Below are positions 41,580-63,778 of a stretch of DNA of 64,000 nt, one piece after another; position 1 is the first letter of the stretch; each line of letters starts with the position of its first letter. The stretch comes from Octopus vulgaris (Eukaryota), in assembly GCA_951406725.2 (NCBI GenBank), contig OX597822.1:59458001-59522000 (forward strand), given 5' to 3'. The position numbers and the translations under genes were made by a program. The notes under the pieces were generated by a model. That model was not told the DNA's origin. It was given only the letters and a program-made list of their open reading frames with translations, and did not search any database.

Positions 41580-41822
41580 GTAGGCGCAATGGCCCAGTGG
41601 TTAGGGCAGCGGACTCGCGGTCGTAAGAACGCGGTTTCGATTCCCAAATCGGGCATTGTGAGTGTTTATTGAGCAAAAACACCTAAGTTCCACAAGCCTC
41701 CGGCGGGGTGGGTGAACCCCGCTGTACTCTGAAAGTTGTGGTGAAAGAGTACAGCGGGGTTCACTCACCCCCGCTGTACTCTTTCACCACAACTTTCTCT
41801 CACTCTTTCTTCCTAATTCTGC
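41580..41822 (+). mobile_element. SINE family C with an internal dup-inversion
   Basis: The head matches the 49820 copy; 41705-41797 is rearranged. Confidence 0.8.
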
Positions 41823-44135: not shown

Positions 44136-44711
44136 AGTACAGGTGTAATTGGTTTTGTTTGTAAATACCTAAGTGACAATATGGAGAAGCTAGAGTTTTC
44201 AGAAAAAAATAATTCAGCCAGATGAGAAGAACATTACAATTTGTAAAAATATACAAGACTTTTCTTAAGTTCAACTTAGGAAATTGTTTTTGTTATTTAC
44301 AGCCCAACAATGGAGCTTTGTATCTTTGTTAGAAACCAGCTCCTTCCTCACAGGAAGATTTTAAATGATTAAGATAAAAGGGAACTCTTACACACAGACA
44401 CACATACACACACACACACACGCAAACACACACACGCAAACGTACAAGCACATGCACACATATACATTCATTGAGATACATATTCGGATGCACATGTAAG
44501 CATATAAACATATATATATATATATATACGTAGCATTCCACTCAAATGACATTTGCCACCACGGACAAATATTTGGGTTCCTGAAATTTAGTGACGTGTA
44601 ATATTAAGTTAATTACTTTCGGCTCGTTTGATGCATAAAACAAATTCATTGTAATTTATTTTCGTCTAGTAAGTTTTATTTGATACAATGAAATACGTAT
44701 TTCTTTTCCAG

Positions 44712-45278
44712 AAACATCCTGTAGTCATCCTGCAGACGTGGTATTTTTGTTAGACTGCTCAGGAAGCCTCAGAAGAGATGAATTTTATGAACAATTAAAC
44801 TTTATGAGGAATTTCGTATCTGAAGCTGATGTTTCACGAAGTGTCGTAAGAGTTAGTTTAGTGACATTCTCAACTTATCCCAGAACGGAATTCTTTTTAA
44901 AAGATTATCGCACCAAGCGAGATGTGATGGCTGCCATTAGCAGAACACGCTATCGTGGTGGACGGACTCATACATGGACGGCATTAGATTATATACGTAA
45001 ATACTCCTTTTCACCAAAATTTGGAAGCCGGCCGGGTGTTCCTAAAATCTTAATCGTAATAACAGATGGAGGCTCTAACGAGAGATATAAGACAATACGG
45101 TCTGCAAGATTGATGAAATCACGAAAAATACGAACATACGCTATTGGAATTGGGAATCAGTTAAATCATGACGAACTAGTAAATTTAGCCTCAAAGAGTA
45201 CTTTCATATTTCATGTACCGAATTCCCATTCATTGAAAAAGATCCAAAATGATGTTCGAAGAAATGTATGTCGCTCAG
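44712..45278 (+). CDS. VWA domain exon 1 of a matrilin/collagen VI-like secreted protein
   Basis: TTCTTTTCCAG acceptor, G|GTAAGT donor, 567 nt, phase 1-1. CSHPADVVFLLDCSGS (MIDAS DxSxS), GGRTHT, ILIVITDG, YAIGIG and a closing Cys. Confidence 0.93.
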
Positions 45279-45617
45279 GTAAGTGACTAATCTTAAATTT
45301 TGTTAGTAAAAACCTTATGATTAGTCTTTGAGAGAACACATAGTCTAGCAAGGATTGGCTCCTATGTATGGGTGTGGACATTATAGAACTCTGGAAAGAA
45401 TGAGAGAGATAATTTCTATAAATTTTGCTGCTCTTGTTTAAACCCGCGTGACATCTCATGAGAGTATTTATGTTCAGAAGCATTCAAGCCACGACTATAC
45501 CATCACTTTCTTGGGCACACACACACACACACACATGTAATTGTTAAAGAGGACAACAAACGTCAAGGCAAGGCAAACATCTCACGTCATATACATAATT
45601 ATTATTGAAAAAATTCA

Positions 45618-45656
45618 GTCTTACAGCTGTTTCTGGGATATTCCGTCATCAGAGAC
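45618..45656 (-). ncRNA. Minimal type I hammerhead
   Basis: GTCT CTGATGA CGGAATATCCCA GAAA CAGCTG TA AGAC. Confidence 0.75.
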
Positions 45657-45925
45657 AAATAGAGAAAAATAGAGAAAATGAGAAGGGTATATATTAATGG
45701 AATGACAATATAGAGGAAAGAAGTAAAGGAATAAAGAGAGAAGAAAATAGTACAACTTTCCGATGTTCATAAGTCTTTAGGTGCAATCCTGCATAGATCC
45801 ATGTAGGTAAAAATCCTGATATTGTAAACATCTCTCTCTTCATCCCCTTATTCCTTTACTCCCTTCCTCTATGTTGCCATTCCATCAATATATACCCTTT
45901 TCAATTTCCCTATTTTCCCCTATTT

Positions 45926-45981
45926 GTCTCTGATGACGGAATATCCCATACTCGGTAATGTCCCAGAAACAGCTGTAAGAC
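45926..45981 (+). ncRNA. Minimal type I hammerhead
   Basis: GTCT CTGATGA -29 nt- GAAA CAGCTG TA AGAC. Confidence 0.75.
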
Positions 45982-46321
45982 TTTTTTTCAATGACAATAA
46001 TGTATACGACTTGAGATGTTTGTCTTGCCTTAACGTTTGTTGTCCTCTTTAGCAATTATGAATCTGCTGCATCGGAAATTTGCAATGGCTCCATAACTAC
46101 CGTTTCGGCTATAACATTGGAACCCTAGTAATCCGTTACAGTATTAACCTAGCGTACGTAATCGTTTAATCACCTGTGAACTAAACTCCCATACCTTGTA
46201 TATATATATATATGAATTATTAACGTGGCTATTCGCAATTTACAACCGACAGGCAACAAGTACAGTCGTCACTAAAGTGACGGAGGGTGCAGGTCAGCAC
46301 CACTATTGCTAGAAATAAGCA

Positions 46322-47049: not shown

Positions 47050-47094
47050 TTGGAGTTTTGCAGAGCAGATAATATATATATATATATATGTATT

Positions 47095-47305
47095 CTGTAA
47101 ATAATAATTATAAGCTTTAAGGGATAAGCGTTAACCGTGTATTTGCTATAGAATATAGTTTAATATTTGGGGTATACAGACTAATTTTTATAGCCAATAC
47201 ACTGTGAACGCTTAGAAGCTTAAAGTTTATAATTATTTACAGAGTTTGATAGTGAAGATATGTCTCATGCTAAGAGGTTAATTACAACATCCTCTGGCAC
47301 CTGTA
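47095..47305. repeat. Imperfect fold-back (arms about 70 bp) plus tail between (TA)n tracts
   Basis: CTGTAAATAATAATTATAAGCTTTAAG..AAGCGTT..GTGTATT.GCTATA is mirrored at 47180-47243. Confidence 0.7.
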
Positions 47306-48376
47306 TATATATTTATATAGGTGTATTACACCGCTCTGTGATCGTCTATTTATATCGACGTGATTTAGACCATGGAGTGTTAAGTGTTTTGGAAAAATTA
47401 GAAGCAGAAACATTAATCTCTGATTTCTTCTTGTTTGGTTGTTCAAAACTCCTTCAGTCAGAAGTTATGAAGCTAAATAACAAGTTTTGTAGCTTCATTA
47501 AGCTGACTCAATTGAAGATACACAAAAACTTAGTAAATTGTCATTAAATCTGAAGTTTACTGAATTACTGCTGTGGTGAGATAAGAAAATTAGATTTTTT
47601 CTAGGGTGGATCCCATTAGATTATCTTCTGTAGAATATAGAACATTCATTAAGTGTATTGATAAAAGATTATAAATGGGTGTAGGCATGACTGTCGTTAA
47701 GAAGCTCTCGTAGCAACCTCATGGATTCAGGTTCAATCCCAATGCGTGGTACTTTAGGCGAGTGTCTTCTATTATAGACTTGGGTTGATAAAACTGGTCA
47801 GAGAGGCTATTTGTGTTTTTAAGAAGCGGACGTAAACCATCACACGGTTTAACATCACCAGCTGACCTTTGATAGTGTCTACTCTATTGCATCCAGGCAA
47901 CCTTATTAATAGTGTGAAACAAAAAATAAAAGGAATCTAAAAAATGTGTTATTTATGTATTCAATACATTTTAATATTCCAGCGGCATGTATTTATACAT
48001 GAGATAAACTCTCAAGAAGTAACTAAGTTGAACCCCGCCCTAAAATATTATGAGATATCTTTTCTTTTTCGCTGTGGAAAGTAGGGTTTTATCACTTTTA
48101 GTTCTATATTTAAGAGATGAGGAATTATGTACATTATTTACATTCGACGGATATTTGTCCTCATCTTGTTTGTTGTTAACACAATGTTTTGGCTGGTCAT
48201 GTATGCAAAAATGGAGACCACCTACCCCTGTAGGATGAAGTTAAAATAATAGACAGAAAACACCACTGGAAAATACGAAAGCTAAAAGAAGTAGCACATA
48301 TACTAGGACACAACAACCTCCTAAGCAGACCGAGTGCAGATATGAGCAGCATATGGGAAACAGTATTAAGGAAGGA

Positions 48377-48611
48377 GTAAGGCGGTGAGCTGGCAGAATC
48401 GTTAGCACACCGGGCGCAATGCTTAGTGATATTTCGTCTGCGTTACGTTGTGAGTTCAAATTCCGCCGAGGTCGACTTTGCCTTTCATCCTTTCGGGGTC
48501 GATAAATTAAGTACCAGTTACGCACTGGGGTCGATGTAATCGACTTAATACCTATGTCTGTCCTTGTTTGTCCCCTCTGTGTTTAGCCCCTTGTGGGTAA
48601 TAAAGAAATAG
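48377..48611 (+). mobile_element. SINE family D with a 14-bp TSD
   Basis: GTATTAAGGAAGGA at 48363-48376 and 48612-48625; Nin/Deu-like core. Confidence 0.9.
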
Positions 48612-48675
48612 GTATTAAGGAAGGATAGAAAAATATTAGATTTATAAGCCCTAATATTCATTCCATAATTGCTCA

Positions 48676-48770
48676 CGAACATATGGCGTAGTGGTTAAGA
48701 GCGCGGGCTACTAACCCCAAGATTCCGAGTTCGATTCCAAGCAGTGACCTGAGTATTAATAATAATAACA
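48676..48770 (+). mobile_element. Very short tRNA-derived SINE with (AAT)n tail
   Basis: TGGCGTAGTGG A box, GAGTTCGATTCC B box, (AAT)n tail. Confidence 0.65.
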
Positions 48771-48792
48771 ACAGGTTCGAAATTTCCCCAAA

Positions 48793-48836
48793 GCACCTGA
48801 AGAAGGTTGGAGGGTATATCAGCGGAAACGTTGTAT
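48793..48836 (+). ncRNA. Minimal type I hammerhead (ACGT stem III)
   Basis: GCAC CTGAAGA AGGTTGG..TCAGCG GAAA CG TT GTAT. The partner arm suggests an ancestral CAGCC and GTGT. Confidence 0.6.
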
Positions 48837-49228
48837 TAACAACAAACAAGTTGAGAACAAATATCTATCGAATGTAAATTGTCACTTTTAGCTTCTATCT
48901 CGGTTCATGTAATGCACAGACGCTTTCTTCTTGGGGTAATCGCGTTTCATATCCAGTTATTTCTATGTATATAAAAGCAATTACATCGTGGAAGAATAAA
49001 TTTAGCTGTTTAAAACAGAAATTACTATACTAACTTTTCATTAATTTGTTCATAGTAAAAAAACATTTGTCGGTCACTGAATTTTAGACACATTTTAATA
49101 GTCTCAACTATTATGAAAAAAAAAGGAATTCAATGTATATCCAATTTGTGTTTGAACTGGCTAAAATGCATGTTTCTTTCAAACAAAGTATTTCAGTTTT
49201 AACTTATGGTCTTTATTTTATCCCTCAC

Positions 49229-50124: not shown

Positions 50125-50279
50125 ATTTATGTGTGTGTGTGTGTGTGTGCATGCGTGTGTGTGTGTGTGTGTTAATACATACAAATATACGCATAATTTA
50201 AGCAAATGTATTTGTAATTGAAACTACTTTTGTTATGAATGTAATTTATCTTTAAACAATATTTTTTCTTATTTTGCAG

Positions 50280-50872
50280 TTTGTGATATTTGGCCTGCTG
50301 ACATTGTATTCCTGTTGGACGATTCCACCAGTATATGGGACAACGATTATCAAAAACAACTCACATTCTTGTCTGAGTTTGTGAAAGATATCACTATTGG
50401 TCCAAAGAAATCACAAATAAGCGTGGTGACATTTAGTTCTCGGCCAAAGACACAATTTTGGCTGCGAGACCATTTGAGTAAAACGGAAGTATTGAGCGCC
50501 ATTAAACATATCGATCGAATGTATGGAGACACGTACACATCTGACGGATTACGAATGATAAGAGAACACAGCTTCTCACCTCGATACGGCGGAAGAATTA
50601 AAGCTTCACACATTGTTATTGTTATAACAGATGGCAAATCAACTATACCAACAGAAACTGTAAACCAAGCAAAAAAGCTACATGATACAAAAGCAATAGT
50701 ATTTGCAATCGGTGTCGGTCGCCGTGTTGACCCAATAGAACTAAATAGCATTGCAAGTGAACGTCAATTTGTCTTCCAGGTTGACAGCTACGATGCTTTG
50801 ACAACGATTAAAACAAAACTCTCTCAAAAAGTTTGCACACTTTCCATAACAAAAGTAGGAGAATGGGATTAA
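50280..50872 (+). CDS. VWA domain exon 2, probably the terminal coding exon
   Basis: CTTATTTTGCAG acceptor in phase 1. (V)CDIWPADIVFLLDDSTS, GDTYT, VIVITDG, FAIGVG, KVC, stop TAA at 50870. Confidence 0.92.
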
Positions 50873-52487: not shown

Positions 52488-52927
52488 CTCTTTTACTTGT
52501 TTCAGTCATTTGACTGCGACCATGCTGGAGCACCGCCTTTAGTCGAGCAAATTGACCCCAGGACTTATGCTTTGTAAGCCTAGTACTTATTCTATCGGTC
52601 CCTTTTGCCGAACCGCTAAGTTACGGGGACGTAAACACACCACCATCGGTTGTCAAGAGATGTTGGGGAACAAACACAGACACACAAACACAAACACACA
52701 CATACATATAAACAGATATACGACAGGCTTTTTTCAGTTTCTGTCTACTAAATCCACTCACAAGGCTTTGGTCGGCCCGAGGCTATAGTAGAAGATGCTT
52801 ACCAACCACATGATTCCGGGTTCAGTCCTACTGCGTGGCACCTTGGGCAAGTGTCTTCTACTATAGCCTCGGGCCGAATAAAGCCTTGTGAGTGGATTTA
52901 GTAGACGGAAACTGAAAGAAGCCCATC

Positions 52928-52970
<43 letters not shown>

Positions 52971-53180
52971 CGTGTGTGTTTGTGTTTGTCCCCTGAACAT
53001 CGCTTGACAACCGATGCTAGTATGTTTACATCCCCGTAACTTAACGGTTCGGCAAAAGAGACCGATAGCATAAGTACTAGGCTTATAAAGAATAAGTCCT
53101 GGGTTCAATTTCTTCGACTAAAGGTGGTACTCCTGCATGGCCGCAGTCAAAATGACTGCAACGAGTAAAAGAGCAAAAGA
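52488..53180. mobile_element. Two family A SINEs fused head to head
   Basis: A minus copy at 52488-52794 abuts a plus copy at 52795-53180; both are 5'-truncated at the junction. Confidence 0.85.
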
Positions 53181-53439: not shown

Positions 53440-53875
53440 ATAAGTATCCGACTAATAAGTATCCGTTCTAGCTCACTTCCGCTGCTTACAGCAGTGCTTG
53501 GAAGTAACGTATGTAGCGTGAGTTGGTTGTATTAACTATAGCAGAGAACTGAGCTGAGAATCTGCATCAAATTTTGGCAAAAGCTTGGCCATACTTGCTC
53601 ATAGGCCTACGCAAATTTGGATATGAGACGCGTGTCTGCCAAGTTTGTGCCAAAACTGCTTTCAGCTGACCAGAAGGACATTCAGGTTTCAGTTGCACAA
53701 AATCTCCTTGATTGTGTCGAGAACGATGAAAACTTTTTGGAAACTTTTCTAGGCCTCGAAGCAAGTATGACCAAGCTTTTGACAAAATTTGATGCAGATT
53801 CTCAGCTCAACTCGCTGTCATGGCTAATACGACGAACACACGCTACACACGTTACTTCGAAGCACTGCTGTAAAT
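53440..53875. mobile_element. mariner deletion derivative made of two inverted 5' ends
   Basis: 53487-53600 is mirrored by 53760-53873. The middle encodes MRRVSAKFVPKLLSADQK..ENDENFL. Confidence 0.75.
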
Positions 53876-54245: not shown

Positions 54246-54278
<33 letters not shown>

Positions 54279-54333
54279 AGTGAATTGAAGAAATGGAGTT
54301 GAACGAAGATTGAACAGAATTCCTTTTATTGCA

Positions 54334-54413
54334 TTCTACACATGTTTCAAAAGCCACAATTTTCCAAATTCTGATTAAATAAGGATTCCATATTGTGGCT
54401 TTCTCTTCAGGAA
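54334..54413 (-). ncRNA. Hammerhead ribozyme in the PLE pLTR
   Basis: TTC CTGAAGA GAAAGCCACAAT-loop-ATTGTGGCTTTT GAAA CATGTG TA GAA, with a 12-bp stem II. Confidence 0.8.
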
Positions 54414-55026
54414 AAAAATAGGAATTCCGTTGGCAGAACAAAACAGAACAGAGGCGCAGCAAAGCAATTTGAACGAGGAGGCTCTTTAAGAGCCCATGGC
54501 TGAACTGATTATCAATGTACGTTGAAATCGGGTGGTGGGTGCGTTGAAGATATTTACAGGTCAGGCGGCGTTCAAATCCAGTAGGTGAGAGCAGGGGGTG
54601 TGGAGATGTTCTGTGTGACCAAAACTAAAATTCTGAATATTTTAAGAATACTGGGTGTATTTTTTGGGGGCGAGACAAAAACTACCTAGAAGCATGTATG
54701 TGTGTACTGGCCTATGTGTGCGCGGCCGTATGTTGGTAAAAGGCGCTACATAATGGTTACTGCTGAAAAATTCGTCAGGCGGCAGAAAATTATTTTTTGT
54801 GTTCGTGTGTTCGTCTAGGCCTGCTTGTCAAAAAATTAACGTCGTCAAAGAATCCTAAGGGTATATAAAATTCCAGCGTTTGCTTCCAAAACAAACCCCC
54901 ATTCGCCTAATGGGAGTAATTTCCCCTTGCAAGGGTTATTCATATTTCTTAAAAAGCTTTTTCAAAAATTATTTCCAAGGATTATTTTCATTTTAGTAGG
55001 GTAACAGGTGCTAATTATCTTAGGTA

Positions 55027-55415
55027 TCATTTATAAGCAAGATAAGTATAACGCCGCCAATGGGGACATCGAAAAGCCGACTGTAAAAGTCCGTTTACCA
55101 ACCGGTCTCTGGCGAACAATATGTGGAAAAGCTCAGAGACACAAAGATTGCACTTCCTTCTGCCCCTATCAAATGGGAGGGCCACCGACAAAATCGACCA
55201 TTCCAGCCTGAAACCTGAGTTCGCGTTCTTCAAACCCCATATAAGCTTGCTAAGTCCCGTAGCTTGGTATTTATTCACGTCGCGAAAAGTTGCGAAATGG
55301 TTGGAAATTCGCAAGGCCAATTTTGACGATGAGGCCCCGACATACGAGTAGACATCTGAGTCCGTGTAAACCTTACATTGGTAAATGGCATTTCTGATCT
55401 TGGAGTTACTCGACA
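55027..55415 (-). pseudogene. GIY-YIG endonuclease fragment of a PLE
   Basis: AIYQCKV..SYVGASS..RISNH..FR..GLSKLIWGLK..LEWSIL..KCNLCVSE. Confidence 0.85.
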
Positions 55416-55708
55416 AGAAATTGTGGCTTTTGAAACATGTGTAGAATGCAATAAAAGGAATTCTGTTCAATCTTCGTTCAACTCCATTTCTTCAATTCAC
55501 TAATAATATTAAAATTCAATTATCCGTACCAACGCACGGTTGCAACACCAAATGGTTTTATCTCACACCGTGCTTTCTTCTGCTGTGATTTTTGCTACCA
55601 AGGCATCGGTTAAACTTTTGATTAATCTGCAACAAGATTATTCATCTATATATATATATATACATATACATACATATATATATATATATACATACATACA
55701 TACATACA

Positions 55709-57870: not shown

Positions 57871-57872
<2 letters not shown>

Positions 57873-58353
57873 GTTTAAATATTTGTTGTGCAAGATTTTT
57901 TATGTGAAGTCGTGTGTTGAAACAGATATTGTTATATTTCGGAATGGTCATATTGCCAGTTTAGCCAATAAAAACACACGCACTATATATTTGGTGTTAT
58001 TTTGCTTCAGTGATATTTATTTTTTACATTAATCTTAATCTTATTTCGGCCAAAGTTCTTTCGTCACACTCCTGTGACCGCATCAGTGGTCCTTTGTTTT
58101 CTTCTCACTTACTTGTGTCTCTCCTTACTAACCGTCAGCCATTTTGTACAAAATGGCTGACGGTTAGTAAGGAGAGACACAAGTAAGTGAGAAGAAAACA
58201 AAGGACCACTGATCGTCACAGGAGTGTGACAAAGAACGCCGAAATAAGATTAAGATTAATGTAAAAATAAATATCACTGAAGCAAAATAACACCAAATAT
58301 ATAGTGCGTGTGTTTTTATTGGCTAAACTGGCAATATGACCATTCCGAAATAT

Positions 58354-58361
<8 letters not shown>
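57871..58361. mobile_element. Spacerless palindrome with arms of about 220 bp, a variant hammerhead and a ~55-bp tail
   Basis: 57926-58147 mirrors 58148-58361 about GT|AC; (TA)n on both sides. Confidence 0.9.
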
Positions 58362-63322: not shown

Positions 63323-63360
<38 letters not shown>

Positions 63361-63369
<9 letters not shown>

Positions 63370-63742
63370 TATTAGAGACAAAACCACTATTTTGCAAAAC
63401 AAACAAGGAAAGACTTAATCAATACATAAAATTTTAATAAATAGTCAAAAAAACCGCCACTACAATTGTTTCTTGTCTTGATCGACAATCTTCAGGTGGA
63501 CTTCCAATAAGTCAGTTTCAAATTATGACTTATTGGAAGACAAGAAACAATTGTAGTGGCGGTTTTTTTGACTATTTATTAAAATTTTATGTATTGATTA
63601 AGTCTTTCCTTGTTTGTTTTGCAAAATAGTGGTTTTGTCTCTAATAATATTTTATAATATTTTACTATAAAATTGGATTTAATCCTAAATCTGATTTTTT
63701 CCCTGTAAATTTGGATTTATTCCCTAATATTTATTATTATTA
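63361..63742. mobile_element. Fold-back element (near-perfect arms of about 118 bp) with a hammerhead and an ~85-bp tail in (TA)n
   Basis: 63361-63478 mirrors 63538-63656; inner 14-bp inverted repeat at 63501-63539. Confidence 0.88.
63457..63499 (-). ncRNA. Minimal type I hammerhead with the full consensus core
   Basis: CCAC CTGAAGA TTGTC GATCAA GACAA GAAA CAATTG TA GTGG. Confidence 0.85.
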
Positions 63743-63746
63743 TATA

Positions 63747-63778
<32 letters not shown>

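What the first reader, a model, noticed from the sequence alone, without database searches (positions are those of the whole stretch)
63361..63742. Best test candidate: an intact 43-nt hammerhead in a young hairpin
Seen: stem I CCAC/GTGG, stem II TTGTC/GACAA, the full core, palindromic CAATTG and a GUA site. The opposite arm has lost the ~22 nt carrying CUGAAGA. Known: a palindromic stem III allows dimeric cleavage in minimal hammerheads.
Basis: partly seen in the sequence, partly recalled or inferred. Interest (0 to 1): 0.7.

Follow-up and report, generated by a model that had tools for sequence, protein, structure and literature searches.

The report
Hammerhead ribozyme in Penelope retrotransposon remnant
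The self-cleaving RNA motif is really there, but it is the usual passenger of a short fold-back fragment of a Penelope-type jumping gene in an octopus-like genome, and related motifs do not cut on their own, so it is an ordinary find and a poor stand-alone test case.

Summary
The 43-nt type I hammerhead is real (minus strand 63499-63457). A relaxed descriptor finds 2 in the window against 0.027 per shuffled window. It sits in a head-to-head fold-back: 120-bp identical arms, a 14-bp apical palindrome, an ~85-nt tail on one arm, (TA)n on both sides. The other arm lacks 24 nt, not ~22. This is the published layout of Penelope-like element (PLE) insertions. The family is dispersed and high-copy in public runs. 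Three other hammerhead fold-backs lie in this window, one attached to a PLE GIY-YIG endonuclease fragment 79% identical to an Octopus protein. The dimer idea holds in silico and is published. 'Best test candidate' is not supported: helix II closes with U-A, not the conserved G-C; the proposed construct misfolds; a read-through transcript buries the motif; related minimal hammerheads are inactive alone or need the element's protein, so no cleavage would refute nothing. No RT/endonuclease ORF of this family was found. The scan reported this pattern before in another genome. Open lead: fold-back junctions of other copies cluster just 3' of the cleavage site.

The parts
63326..63363 (.). (TA)19 microsatellite, left half of the probable target
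   Evidence: sequence
63360..63525 (-). Left arm: pseudo-LTR-like unit (~166 nt) from the family's apparent 5' end (~63521-63528) to the first 3' end; carries the whole hammerhead; no tail
   Evidence: joints and loose ends of other copies at 63521-63528
63457..63499 (-). 43-nt type I hammerhead: helix I 4 bp, helix II 5 bp closed by U-A, palindromic helix III, GUA triplet; predicted cut 63461/63460
63463..63468 (-). Palindromic helix III/loop, the predicted dimer interface; a family variant (A to G at 63467) keeps pairing through G-U wobble
63501..63539 (.). Apical 14-bp palindrome with 11-nt loop at the inverted junction
   Evidence: z -6.68
63526..63656 (+). Right arm: inverted copy lacking 24 nt (stem I 5' strand, CUGAAGA core, stem II 5' strand, most of loop II) between AAG microhomologies; no hammerhead possible
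63657..63742 (+). ~85-nt tail present on one arm only; other family copies end either at 63656 or at ~63731-63742
   Evidence: loose ends at 63656 and 63731
63741..63764 (.). (TA)12 microsatellite, right half of the probable target
   Evidence: sequence

Best explanation
A recent, ORF-less fold-back insertion of the pseudo-LTR of an endonuclease-positive Penelope-like retroelement, carrying that class's minimal type I hammerhead, in an octopus-like genome. Shown here: the anatomy, and a dispersed multi-copy family with two alternative 3' ends. Inferred from published PLE work: an RT/GIY-YIG protein supplied in trans nicks both strands of a (TA)n tract and starts reverse transcription at two internal sites of the element RNA (63656- and ~63742-equivalent, which makes the one-sided tail). 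The two cDNAs run towards the RNA 5' end and are joined head to head, or one self-primes at the apical palindrome. One arm lost 24 nt by an AAG microhomology jump during copying or later repair. The hammerhead most likely works, if at all, in the active element's RNA as an RNA dimer through the palindrome and/or with help from the element's protein, trimming long or tandem precursors. At this locus it is probably a silent passenger, because read-through RNA forms a 120-bp duplex that buries its 3' half.
For: Anatomy. It matches the PLE layout in PMC8557442 (passages: inverted 5'-truncated copy, one-sided tail, (TA)n bias for Naiads and hypothesised for Neptune), PMC3846280 (passages and Discussion: 181-218 bp pLTRs, palindromes at the inverted junction, head-to-head order, solo pLTRs, microhomology deletions), PMC4209133 (parts 1-2 of 4: minimal hammerheads in pLTRs, opposite-strand pairs 100-700 bp apart, palindromic helix III) and PMC11167929 (parts 1-2 of 4: both strands nicked and extended, tail = distance between two RT starts). 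Family: 20 of 24 listed runs, from 13 studies, hold half or more of the sampled words. 2141, 1353, 129 and 137 contigs were laid in 4 of 4 runs, summed depth is highest over the tail and falls towards the 5' end, and other copies run into (TA)n at both 3' ends. None of the 15 listed substitutions or 8 listed indels hits a core position. Neighbours with the same layout: 54271-55645, where a hammerhead (54410-54337) follows a C-terminal GIY-YIG fragment (Atlas 0.96) whose relatives P0011, P0037, P0103 carry RT motifs upstream and whose closest named relative is an Octopus sinensis protein, 79% over 56 aa; also 45538-~46200 and 57872-58361. The 45.9-kb motif has the same design with different letters (other 4-bp helix I, other 6-nt palindrome, GUA) and no blastn similarity. 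Dimer fold. Burial in read-through RNA: hammerhead fold costs 31 kcal/mol, stem I probability 0.0. PLEs are reported as recently active in Octopus vulgaris (31 families, 336 insertions; PMC13282606 passages).
Against: No RT or endonuclease ORF of this very family was found: no genome is held, and tblastn of 154 fetched proteins hit only the 55-kb element, so PLE membership rests on architecture. The tail (~85 nt) is longer than the 30-40 bp usually described. Helix II is short (5 bp) and closed by U-A, off the published consensus. In the isolated 166-nt unit the hammerhead fold is not favoured either (stem I probability 0.0, 2.6 kcal/mol above the minimum). The family is young, so lack of core variants is weak evidence of selection. 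No listed contig piece spans the deletion junction (list cut), so the 24-nt loss could be an assembly error. Cleavage itself was not tested.
Confidence: 0.85

Rival explanations
1. A stray monomer or rearranged copy of a non-LTR retrozyme (tandem hammerhead repeat that spreads through circular RNA).
For: Short, AT-rich, non-coding unit with a type I hammerhead; retrozyme units are 170-400 nt (PMC7229834 passages). A preprint derives retrozymes from PLE pLTRs (10.64898/2026.07.22.740005, part 1 of 5).
Against: No head-to-tail repeat here and no second copy in the window. All 15 listed joints are forward skips, none goes back as a tandem junction would (5 more not shown). Helix I is 4 bp, without the 6-bp canonical design. 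One-sided tail and inverted arm are PLE traits.
Confidence: 0.05
2. The locus itself makes an efficiently self-cleaving RNA: the loss in the opposite arm leaves the core unpaired and two transcripts dimerise and cut without protein.
For: Full core and GUA triplet, which occurs in natural hammerheads (PMC1636495 passages). The double hammerhead is the cofold minimum of the 43-mer and of 202 of 486 boundary choices.
Against: In fold-back RNA the 3' half of the motif lies in the perfect duplex (31 kcal/mol penalty). Published relatives are inactive or weak without protein. U10.1-A11.1 closure. No sharp drop of family depth at the cut site, and no pile-up of ends listed (tables 2 and 6; contigs are a poor measure).
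Confidence: 0.05
3. A MITE-like or Foldback DNA transposon whose terminal inverted repeats happen to contain a hammerhead-like string.
For: Long perfect inverted repeats, no ORF, TA context.
Against: The repeats are asymmetric (one-sided tail), arm lengths vary between copies (15 listed joints), depth falls from 3' to 5' like a retroelement, and the hammerhead is far beyond chance.
Confidence: 0.03
4. The insertion is real but the 24-nt loss, and the perfect identity of the arms, are long-read or polishing artefacts at a palindrome; both arms hold an intact hammerhead. Compatible with the main explanation.
For: No listed piece spans the junction. In the 58-kb fold-back four of five arm differences are small gaps in one arm, the kind of error that, from my own knowledge, hairpins provoke in long reads.
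Against: The loss is clean and bounded by a 3-nt microhomology, a known PLE fate. The older 45-kb element has a similar 17-nt loss between short repeats in its helix II. Run X16 shows flat depth (127-135) across 63521-63559, as a spanning contig would give (not proven).
Confidence: 0.07

Closest known systems
Minimal type I hammerheads of metazoan PLE pseudo-LTRs (Cervera and de la Pena 2014, PMC4209133), especially the variants with a small palindromic helix III (Drosophila, rotifer, shrimp, mosquito)
   Same: Full core, 4-bp helix I without defined loop 1, palindromic 15.2-16.2/loop 3, dispersed single motifs, opposite-strand pairs within 100-700 bp, dimer design
   Different: Helix II only 5 bp; U10.1-A11.1 instead of G-C; no unpaired base after A9; 4-nt loop 3. 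The supplementary alignments of that paper were not read, so such variants may already be listed there.
Complex insertions of EN+ Penelope-like elements: pLTR, inverted 5'-truncated copy, tail (PMC3846280, PMC8557442, PMC11167929)
   Same: Head-to-head arms, palindrome at the junction, tail on one end, AT-rich/(TA)n target, pLTR of ~170-250 nt, microhomology deletion
   Different: No ORF at this locus; tail ~85 nt rather than 30-40; the autonomous partner and clade are unidentified
Non-LTR retrozymes of animals (PMC7229834)
   Same: Short non-coding AT-rich unit with a type I hammerhead, high copy
   Different: Not tandem; inverted layout; no canonical helix I/loop contacts; circular RNA untested

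Membership tests
Type I hammerhead, PLE minimal/palindromic type | Core CUGANGA and GAAA, U16.1, H17, flanked by helices I and II | tested here: met
Type I hammerhead, PLE minimal/palindromic type | Short helix I (4-5 bp), no defined loop 1 | tested here: met
   4 bp; feature
Type I hammerhead, PLE minimal/palindromic type | Palindromic 15.2-16.2/loop 3 allowing a dimer helix III | tested here: met
   cofold minimum is the double hammerhead; natural variant keeps pairing by wobble
Type I hammerhead, PLE minimal/palindromic type | Consensus traits outside the published descriptor: G10.1-C11.1 pair, extra base after A9, long helix II | tested here: not met
   U-A closure, no bulge, 5 bp; no variant listed at 63488 or 63473; traits
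Type I hammerhead, PLE minimal/palindromic type | Site-specific self-cleavage after H17 | not testable with these tools
   needs a bench assay
EN+ Penelope-like element insertion | Head-to-head inverted pLTR copies with a palindrome at the junction | tested here: met
   feature
EN+ Penelope-like element insertion | Tail on one end only, i.e. two alternative 3' ends | tested here: met
   ~85 nt, longer than the 30-40 bp described
EN+ Penelope-like element insertion | Hammerhead in the pLTR; AT-rich/(TA)n target; dispersed 5'-truncated copies | tested here: met
EN+ Penelope-like element insertion | RT plus GIY-YIG ORF bounded by this same pLTR somewhere in the genome | tested here: inconclusive
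   none in the window; no genome held; the GIY-YIG-bearing element at 55 kb is another family (no blastn match)
Non-LTR retrozyme | Head-to-tail tandem repeats, each with a hammerhead | tested here: not met
   no back-going joint among the 15 listed
Non-LTR retrozyme | Circular monomer RNA | not testable with these tools
   only contigs were available

The most novel reading that the evidence does not exclude
Octopus fold-back PLE copies keep a DNA record of the hammerhead acting on the RNA template in vivo. In other copies of this family 12 of 15 listed fold-back joints have an arm ending 2-25 nt 3' of the scissile bond (19 of 28 arm ends; none between loop II and the cut). In 4 of 4 clear fold-backs of this window one arm breaks or loses bases inside the ribozyme. 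If cleavage, or RT arrest at a dimerised ribozyme, sets these breakpoints, it would be in-vivo evidence for what PLE hammerheads do, which is open, and would extend the active consensus to U10.1-A11.1 motifs.
Probability: 0.12. Interest if true: 0.6.

Novelty: new member of a known kind. Interest (0 to 1): 0.22.

Why it matters
As it stands it adds one more family to thousands of known PLE-associated minimal hammerheads, here in a cephalopod. Five of the searches bear on prior print; none of their listings showed a paper on hammerheads in octopus PLEs, and the O. vulgaris repeat paper never mentions hammerheads or ribozymes, but closed-access papers, Repbase and supplements were not seen. The open question is the in-vivo role of these ribozymes. 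A young, high-copy family with many fold-back junctions is usable material for it: mapping junctions against the cut site is cheap and could show whether cleaved RNA is ever a template.

Tried and rejected
No whole genome is held, so copy number, an autonomous partner and empty-site alleles could not be checked. Rfam: 0 matches at gathering score in the window; the 10 weak matches around the element are hairpin look-alikes, none a hammerhead. Metagenome scan: 2 matches, both 20-21-nt chance hits in GC-rich contigs. Viral contigs: 0. Word-based search for long relatives of the 55-kb endonuclease fragment: 0 of 150 candidates passed; Pfam gave no family for it and only sub-threshold GIY-YIG for 3 of 13 relatives. 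Expression: no RNA holder listed on record; two runs guessed as RNA were laid as contigs only, so transcription, strand and ends are untested. Host gene: VWA exons lie on + at 44684-45283 and 50222-50869; no further VWA exon was found, so whether the element is intronic is unknown. Tail as ORF start: open frames cross the tail here and at 55 kb (there with an ATG), but not clearly at 45 or 58 kb; not used as evidence. A measured cost of U10.1-A11.1 was sought and not found; that it lowers activity is my recall. Cleavage as an obligatory step is rejected: in all four clear fold-backs of the window both arms extend 5' of the cut site. The binomial values for junction clustering (2e-7 and 3e-11) are not relied on: the two ends of a joint are not independent, only the best-supported 15 of 20 joints were shown, arms reaching 5' of 63537 map differently, and a U7 run offers microhomology there. 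Look-ups of earlier scan notes by sequence and by place found nothing.

Full report
Observation. The motif is as described. On the minus strand, 63499-63457 holds helix I (4 bp), the CUGAAGA core, helix II (5 bp, 6-nt loop), GAAA, a 6-nt palindrome and a GUA triplet, with the predicted cut between 63461 and 63460. A relaxed type I descriptor finds 2 motifs in the window against a mean of 0.027 in 1000 dinucleotide shuffles; a descriptor fitted to this motif after the fact finds 0 in 1000. The 43-mer is not specially stable (z -0.48) and Rfam has no hammerhead match. The arms 63360-63479 and 63537-63656 are identical over 120 nt. The second arm lacks 24 nt between AAG microhomologies, not ~22.

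What it belongs to. This layout is the one published for endonuclease-positive Penelope-like elements. Craig et al. describe an inverted 5'-truncated copy, a one-sided tail and (TA)n bias (PMC8557442, passages). Arkhipova et al. describe ~200-bp pLTRs, palindromes at head-to-head junctions, solo pLTRs and microhomology deletions (PMC3846280, passages and Discussion). Cervera and de la Pena found minimal hammerheads in pLTRs, mostly as dispersed singles, some as opposite-strand pairs 100-700 bp apart, with palindromic helix III (PMC4209133, parts 1-2 of 4). Frangieh et al. showed that a PLE protein nicks and extends both strands and that the tail is the distance between two internal RT start sites (PMC11167929, parts 1-2 of 4). 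No supplements were read; the 2014 alignments may already hold variants like this one.

The family. No genome is held. Of 24 listed public runs, 20 from 13 studies hold half or more of the sampled words. Laying 4 of them gave 2141, 1353, 129 and 137 contigs. Summed depth is highest over the tail and falls towards the 5' end; this is no copy number, but it shows a dispersed, 5'-truncated repeat. Other copies run into (TA)n at 63656 and near 63731, so both 3' ends are family traits. Joints and loose ends at 63521-63528 place the family's 5' end about 25 nt upstream of the ribozyme. None of the 15 listed substitutions or 8 listed indels touches the core. Three lie in the motif's loops: two in loop II and one in the palindrome (48% of depth in X3), and the latter keeps the dimer helix through G-U pairs (-21.4 against -22.0 kcal/mol). 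The family is young, so this is modest evidence of selection.

The neighbourhood. Three more fold-backs with hammerheads between microsatellites lie in the window: 54271-55645, 45538-~46200 and 57872-58361; a fifth candidate at 48136-48879 is decayed and unclear. They share no blastn similarity with this unit. At 55 kb the hammerhead follows the end of a GIY-YIG frame (55416-55030, minus). The Atlas ranks a GIY-YIG cluster first (0.96). Relatives P0011, P0037 and P0103 carry RT motifs and a cysteine linker upstream of the matched part (motif reading and clade likeness are my recall). Named relatives are from Octopus sinensis (79% over 56 aa) and Argonauta. So C-terminal-endonuclease PLEs with this very architecture exist in this genome, but that element is another family, and no ORF was found for the 63-kb family. 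PLEs are listed as recently active in O. vulgaris (PMC13282606 passages). Zero differences in 120 bp bound arm divergence at about 2.5% (rule of three), which fits a recent insertion unless conversion or polishing homogenised the arms.

How it likely works. Inferred: the family protein, in trans, nicks a (TA)n tract on both strands and primes two cDNAs at the two internal start sites; both run towards the RNA 5' end and are joined head to head, or one self-primes at the apical palindrome. One arm lost 24 nt by a microhomology jump. The hammerhead is built for dimers: the cofold minimum of two 43-mers is the double hammerhead, 9 kcal/mol below two monomers, while forcing a 2-bp helix III in the monomer costs energy. 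The 45.9-kb motif repeats the design with different letters. At this locus a read-through RNA forms the long duplex, and the ribozyme fold costs 31 kcal/mol. Even the isolated 166-nt unit does not favour it (stem I probability 0.0). I put the PLE remnant reading at 0.85.

As a test candidate. It is weaker than claimed. Helix II closes with U-A and lacks the extra base after A9, both off the published consensus; I found no measurement of that cost. GUA is natural and somewhat slower than GUC after purification (PMC1636495 passages). The proposed 63450-63510 RNA has stem I probability ~0.3 and its dimer minimum is not the double hammerhead; 63455-63503 gives 0.9 and the right dimer (202 of 486 boundary choices give the right dimer). 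Published relatives do not cut as monomers, cut weakly as dimers, or cut only with protein. Absence of cleavage would therefore refute nothing.

The open lead. In one search, 12 of 15 listed joints have an arm ending within 25 nt 3' of the cut site (19 of 28 arm ends after setting aside the two that reach the 5' end; none in 63537-63555; nearest 63558). In all four clear fold-backs of the window one arm is damaged inside the ribozyme: 24 nt lost here, 17 nt at 45 kb, a break at loop II at 55 kb, three small gaps at 58 kb. Against a cleavage footprint: no end falls exactly at the cut, a U7 run supplies microhomology, 5 joints were not shown, mapping is biased, depth shows no step at the cut, both arms pass the cut in all four window elements, the ribozyme lies near the apex where hairpins break anyway, and Frangieh et al. 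found uncut RNA to be the main template. I give it 0.12. One search listed no paper devoted to this.

Verdict. Observation confirmed; interpretation partly supported; new member of a known kind; interest 0.22. Two earlier scan notes from another genome reached the same reading; I saw them after stating mine and did not check them.

Noticed in passing
window 54271-55645: PLE fragment with the same layout: GIY-YIG frame end (55416-55030, minus), hammerhead with a 12-bp helix II (54410-54337, minus), 92-bp perfect inverted arm starting at the loop II/stem II boundary (55418-55509), ~135-nt tail with an ATG-started open frame, (TA)n both sides.
   Followed up: partly
window 45538-46200: Older fold-back ~250 nt after a VWA exon; plus-strand hammerhead from 45930 with palindromic helix III and GUA; the other arm lost 17 nt of helix II between short repeats.
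   Followed up: partly
window 57872-58361: 96% identical fold-back between (TA)n tracts with a decayed hammerhead; three of four small gaps in the right arm fall in the ribozyme; ~50-nt tail on the left arm.
   Followed up: partly
window 48136-48879: Inverted pair 625 nt apart (87% over 60 nt); decayed hammerhead-like core at 48797-48829; homology of the other arm begins in stem II 3' strand. May not be one insertion.
   Followed up: partly
window 63427, 63435, 63479 (family contigs in run X10): All 3 listed differences seen only in X10, a run guessed to be RNA, are A to G on the hammerhead strand and absent from both DNA runs. This would fit A-to-I editing of fold-back duplex RNA, but there is no matched DNA and the run type is a guess.
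   Followed up: no
window 63482-63507 (run X6): Family depth in run X6 falls about 15-fold across the hammerhead core (91,000 to 6,000), unlike X3 and X10: a divergent subfamily or truncation at the ribozyme.
   Followed up: no
window 44684-45283 and 50222-50869: Two plus-strand VWA-domain exons, 37% identical, of a host gene.
   Followed up: no
window 41731-41797, 47094-47243, 52488-53173, 53486-53873: Further inverted repeats: a short fold-back inside a dispersed repeat, an old AT-rich fold-back next to (TA)n, an inverted pair of a common repeat, and a 124-bp terminal-repeat pair; no hammerhead found in them.
   Followed up: no
P0007, P0011, P0012: Octopus and Argonauta relatives of the endonuclease fragment; P0007 and P0011 have asparagine-rich stretches, as described for rotifer PLE inserts; databases name P0007 as a kinase.
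   Followed up: no
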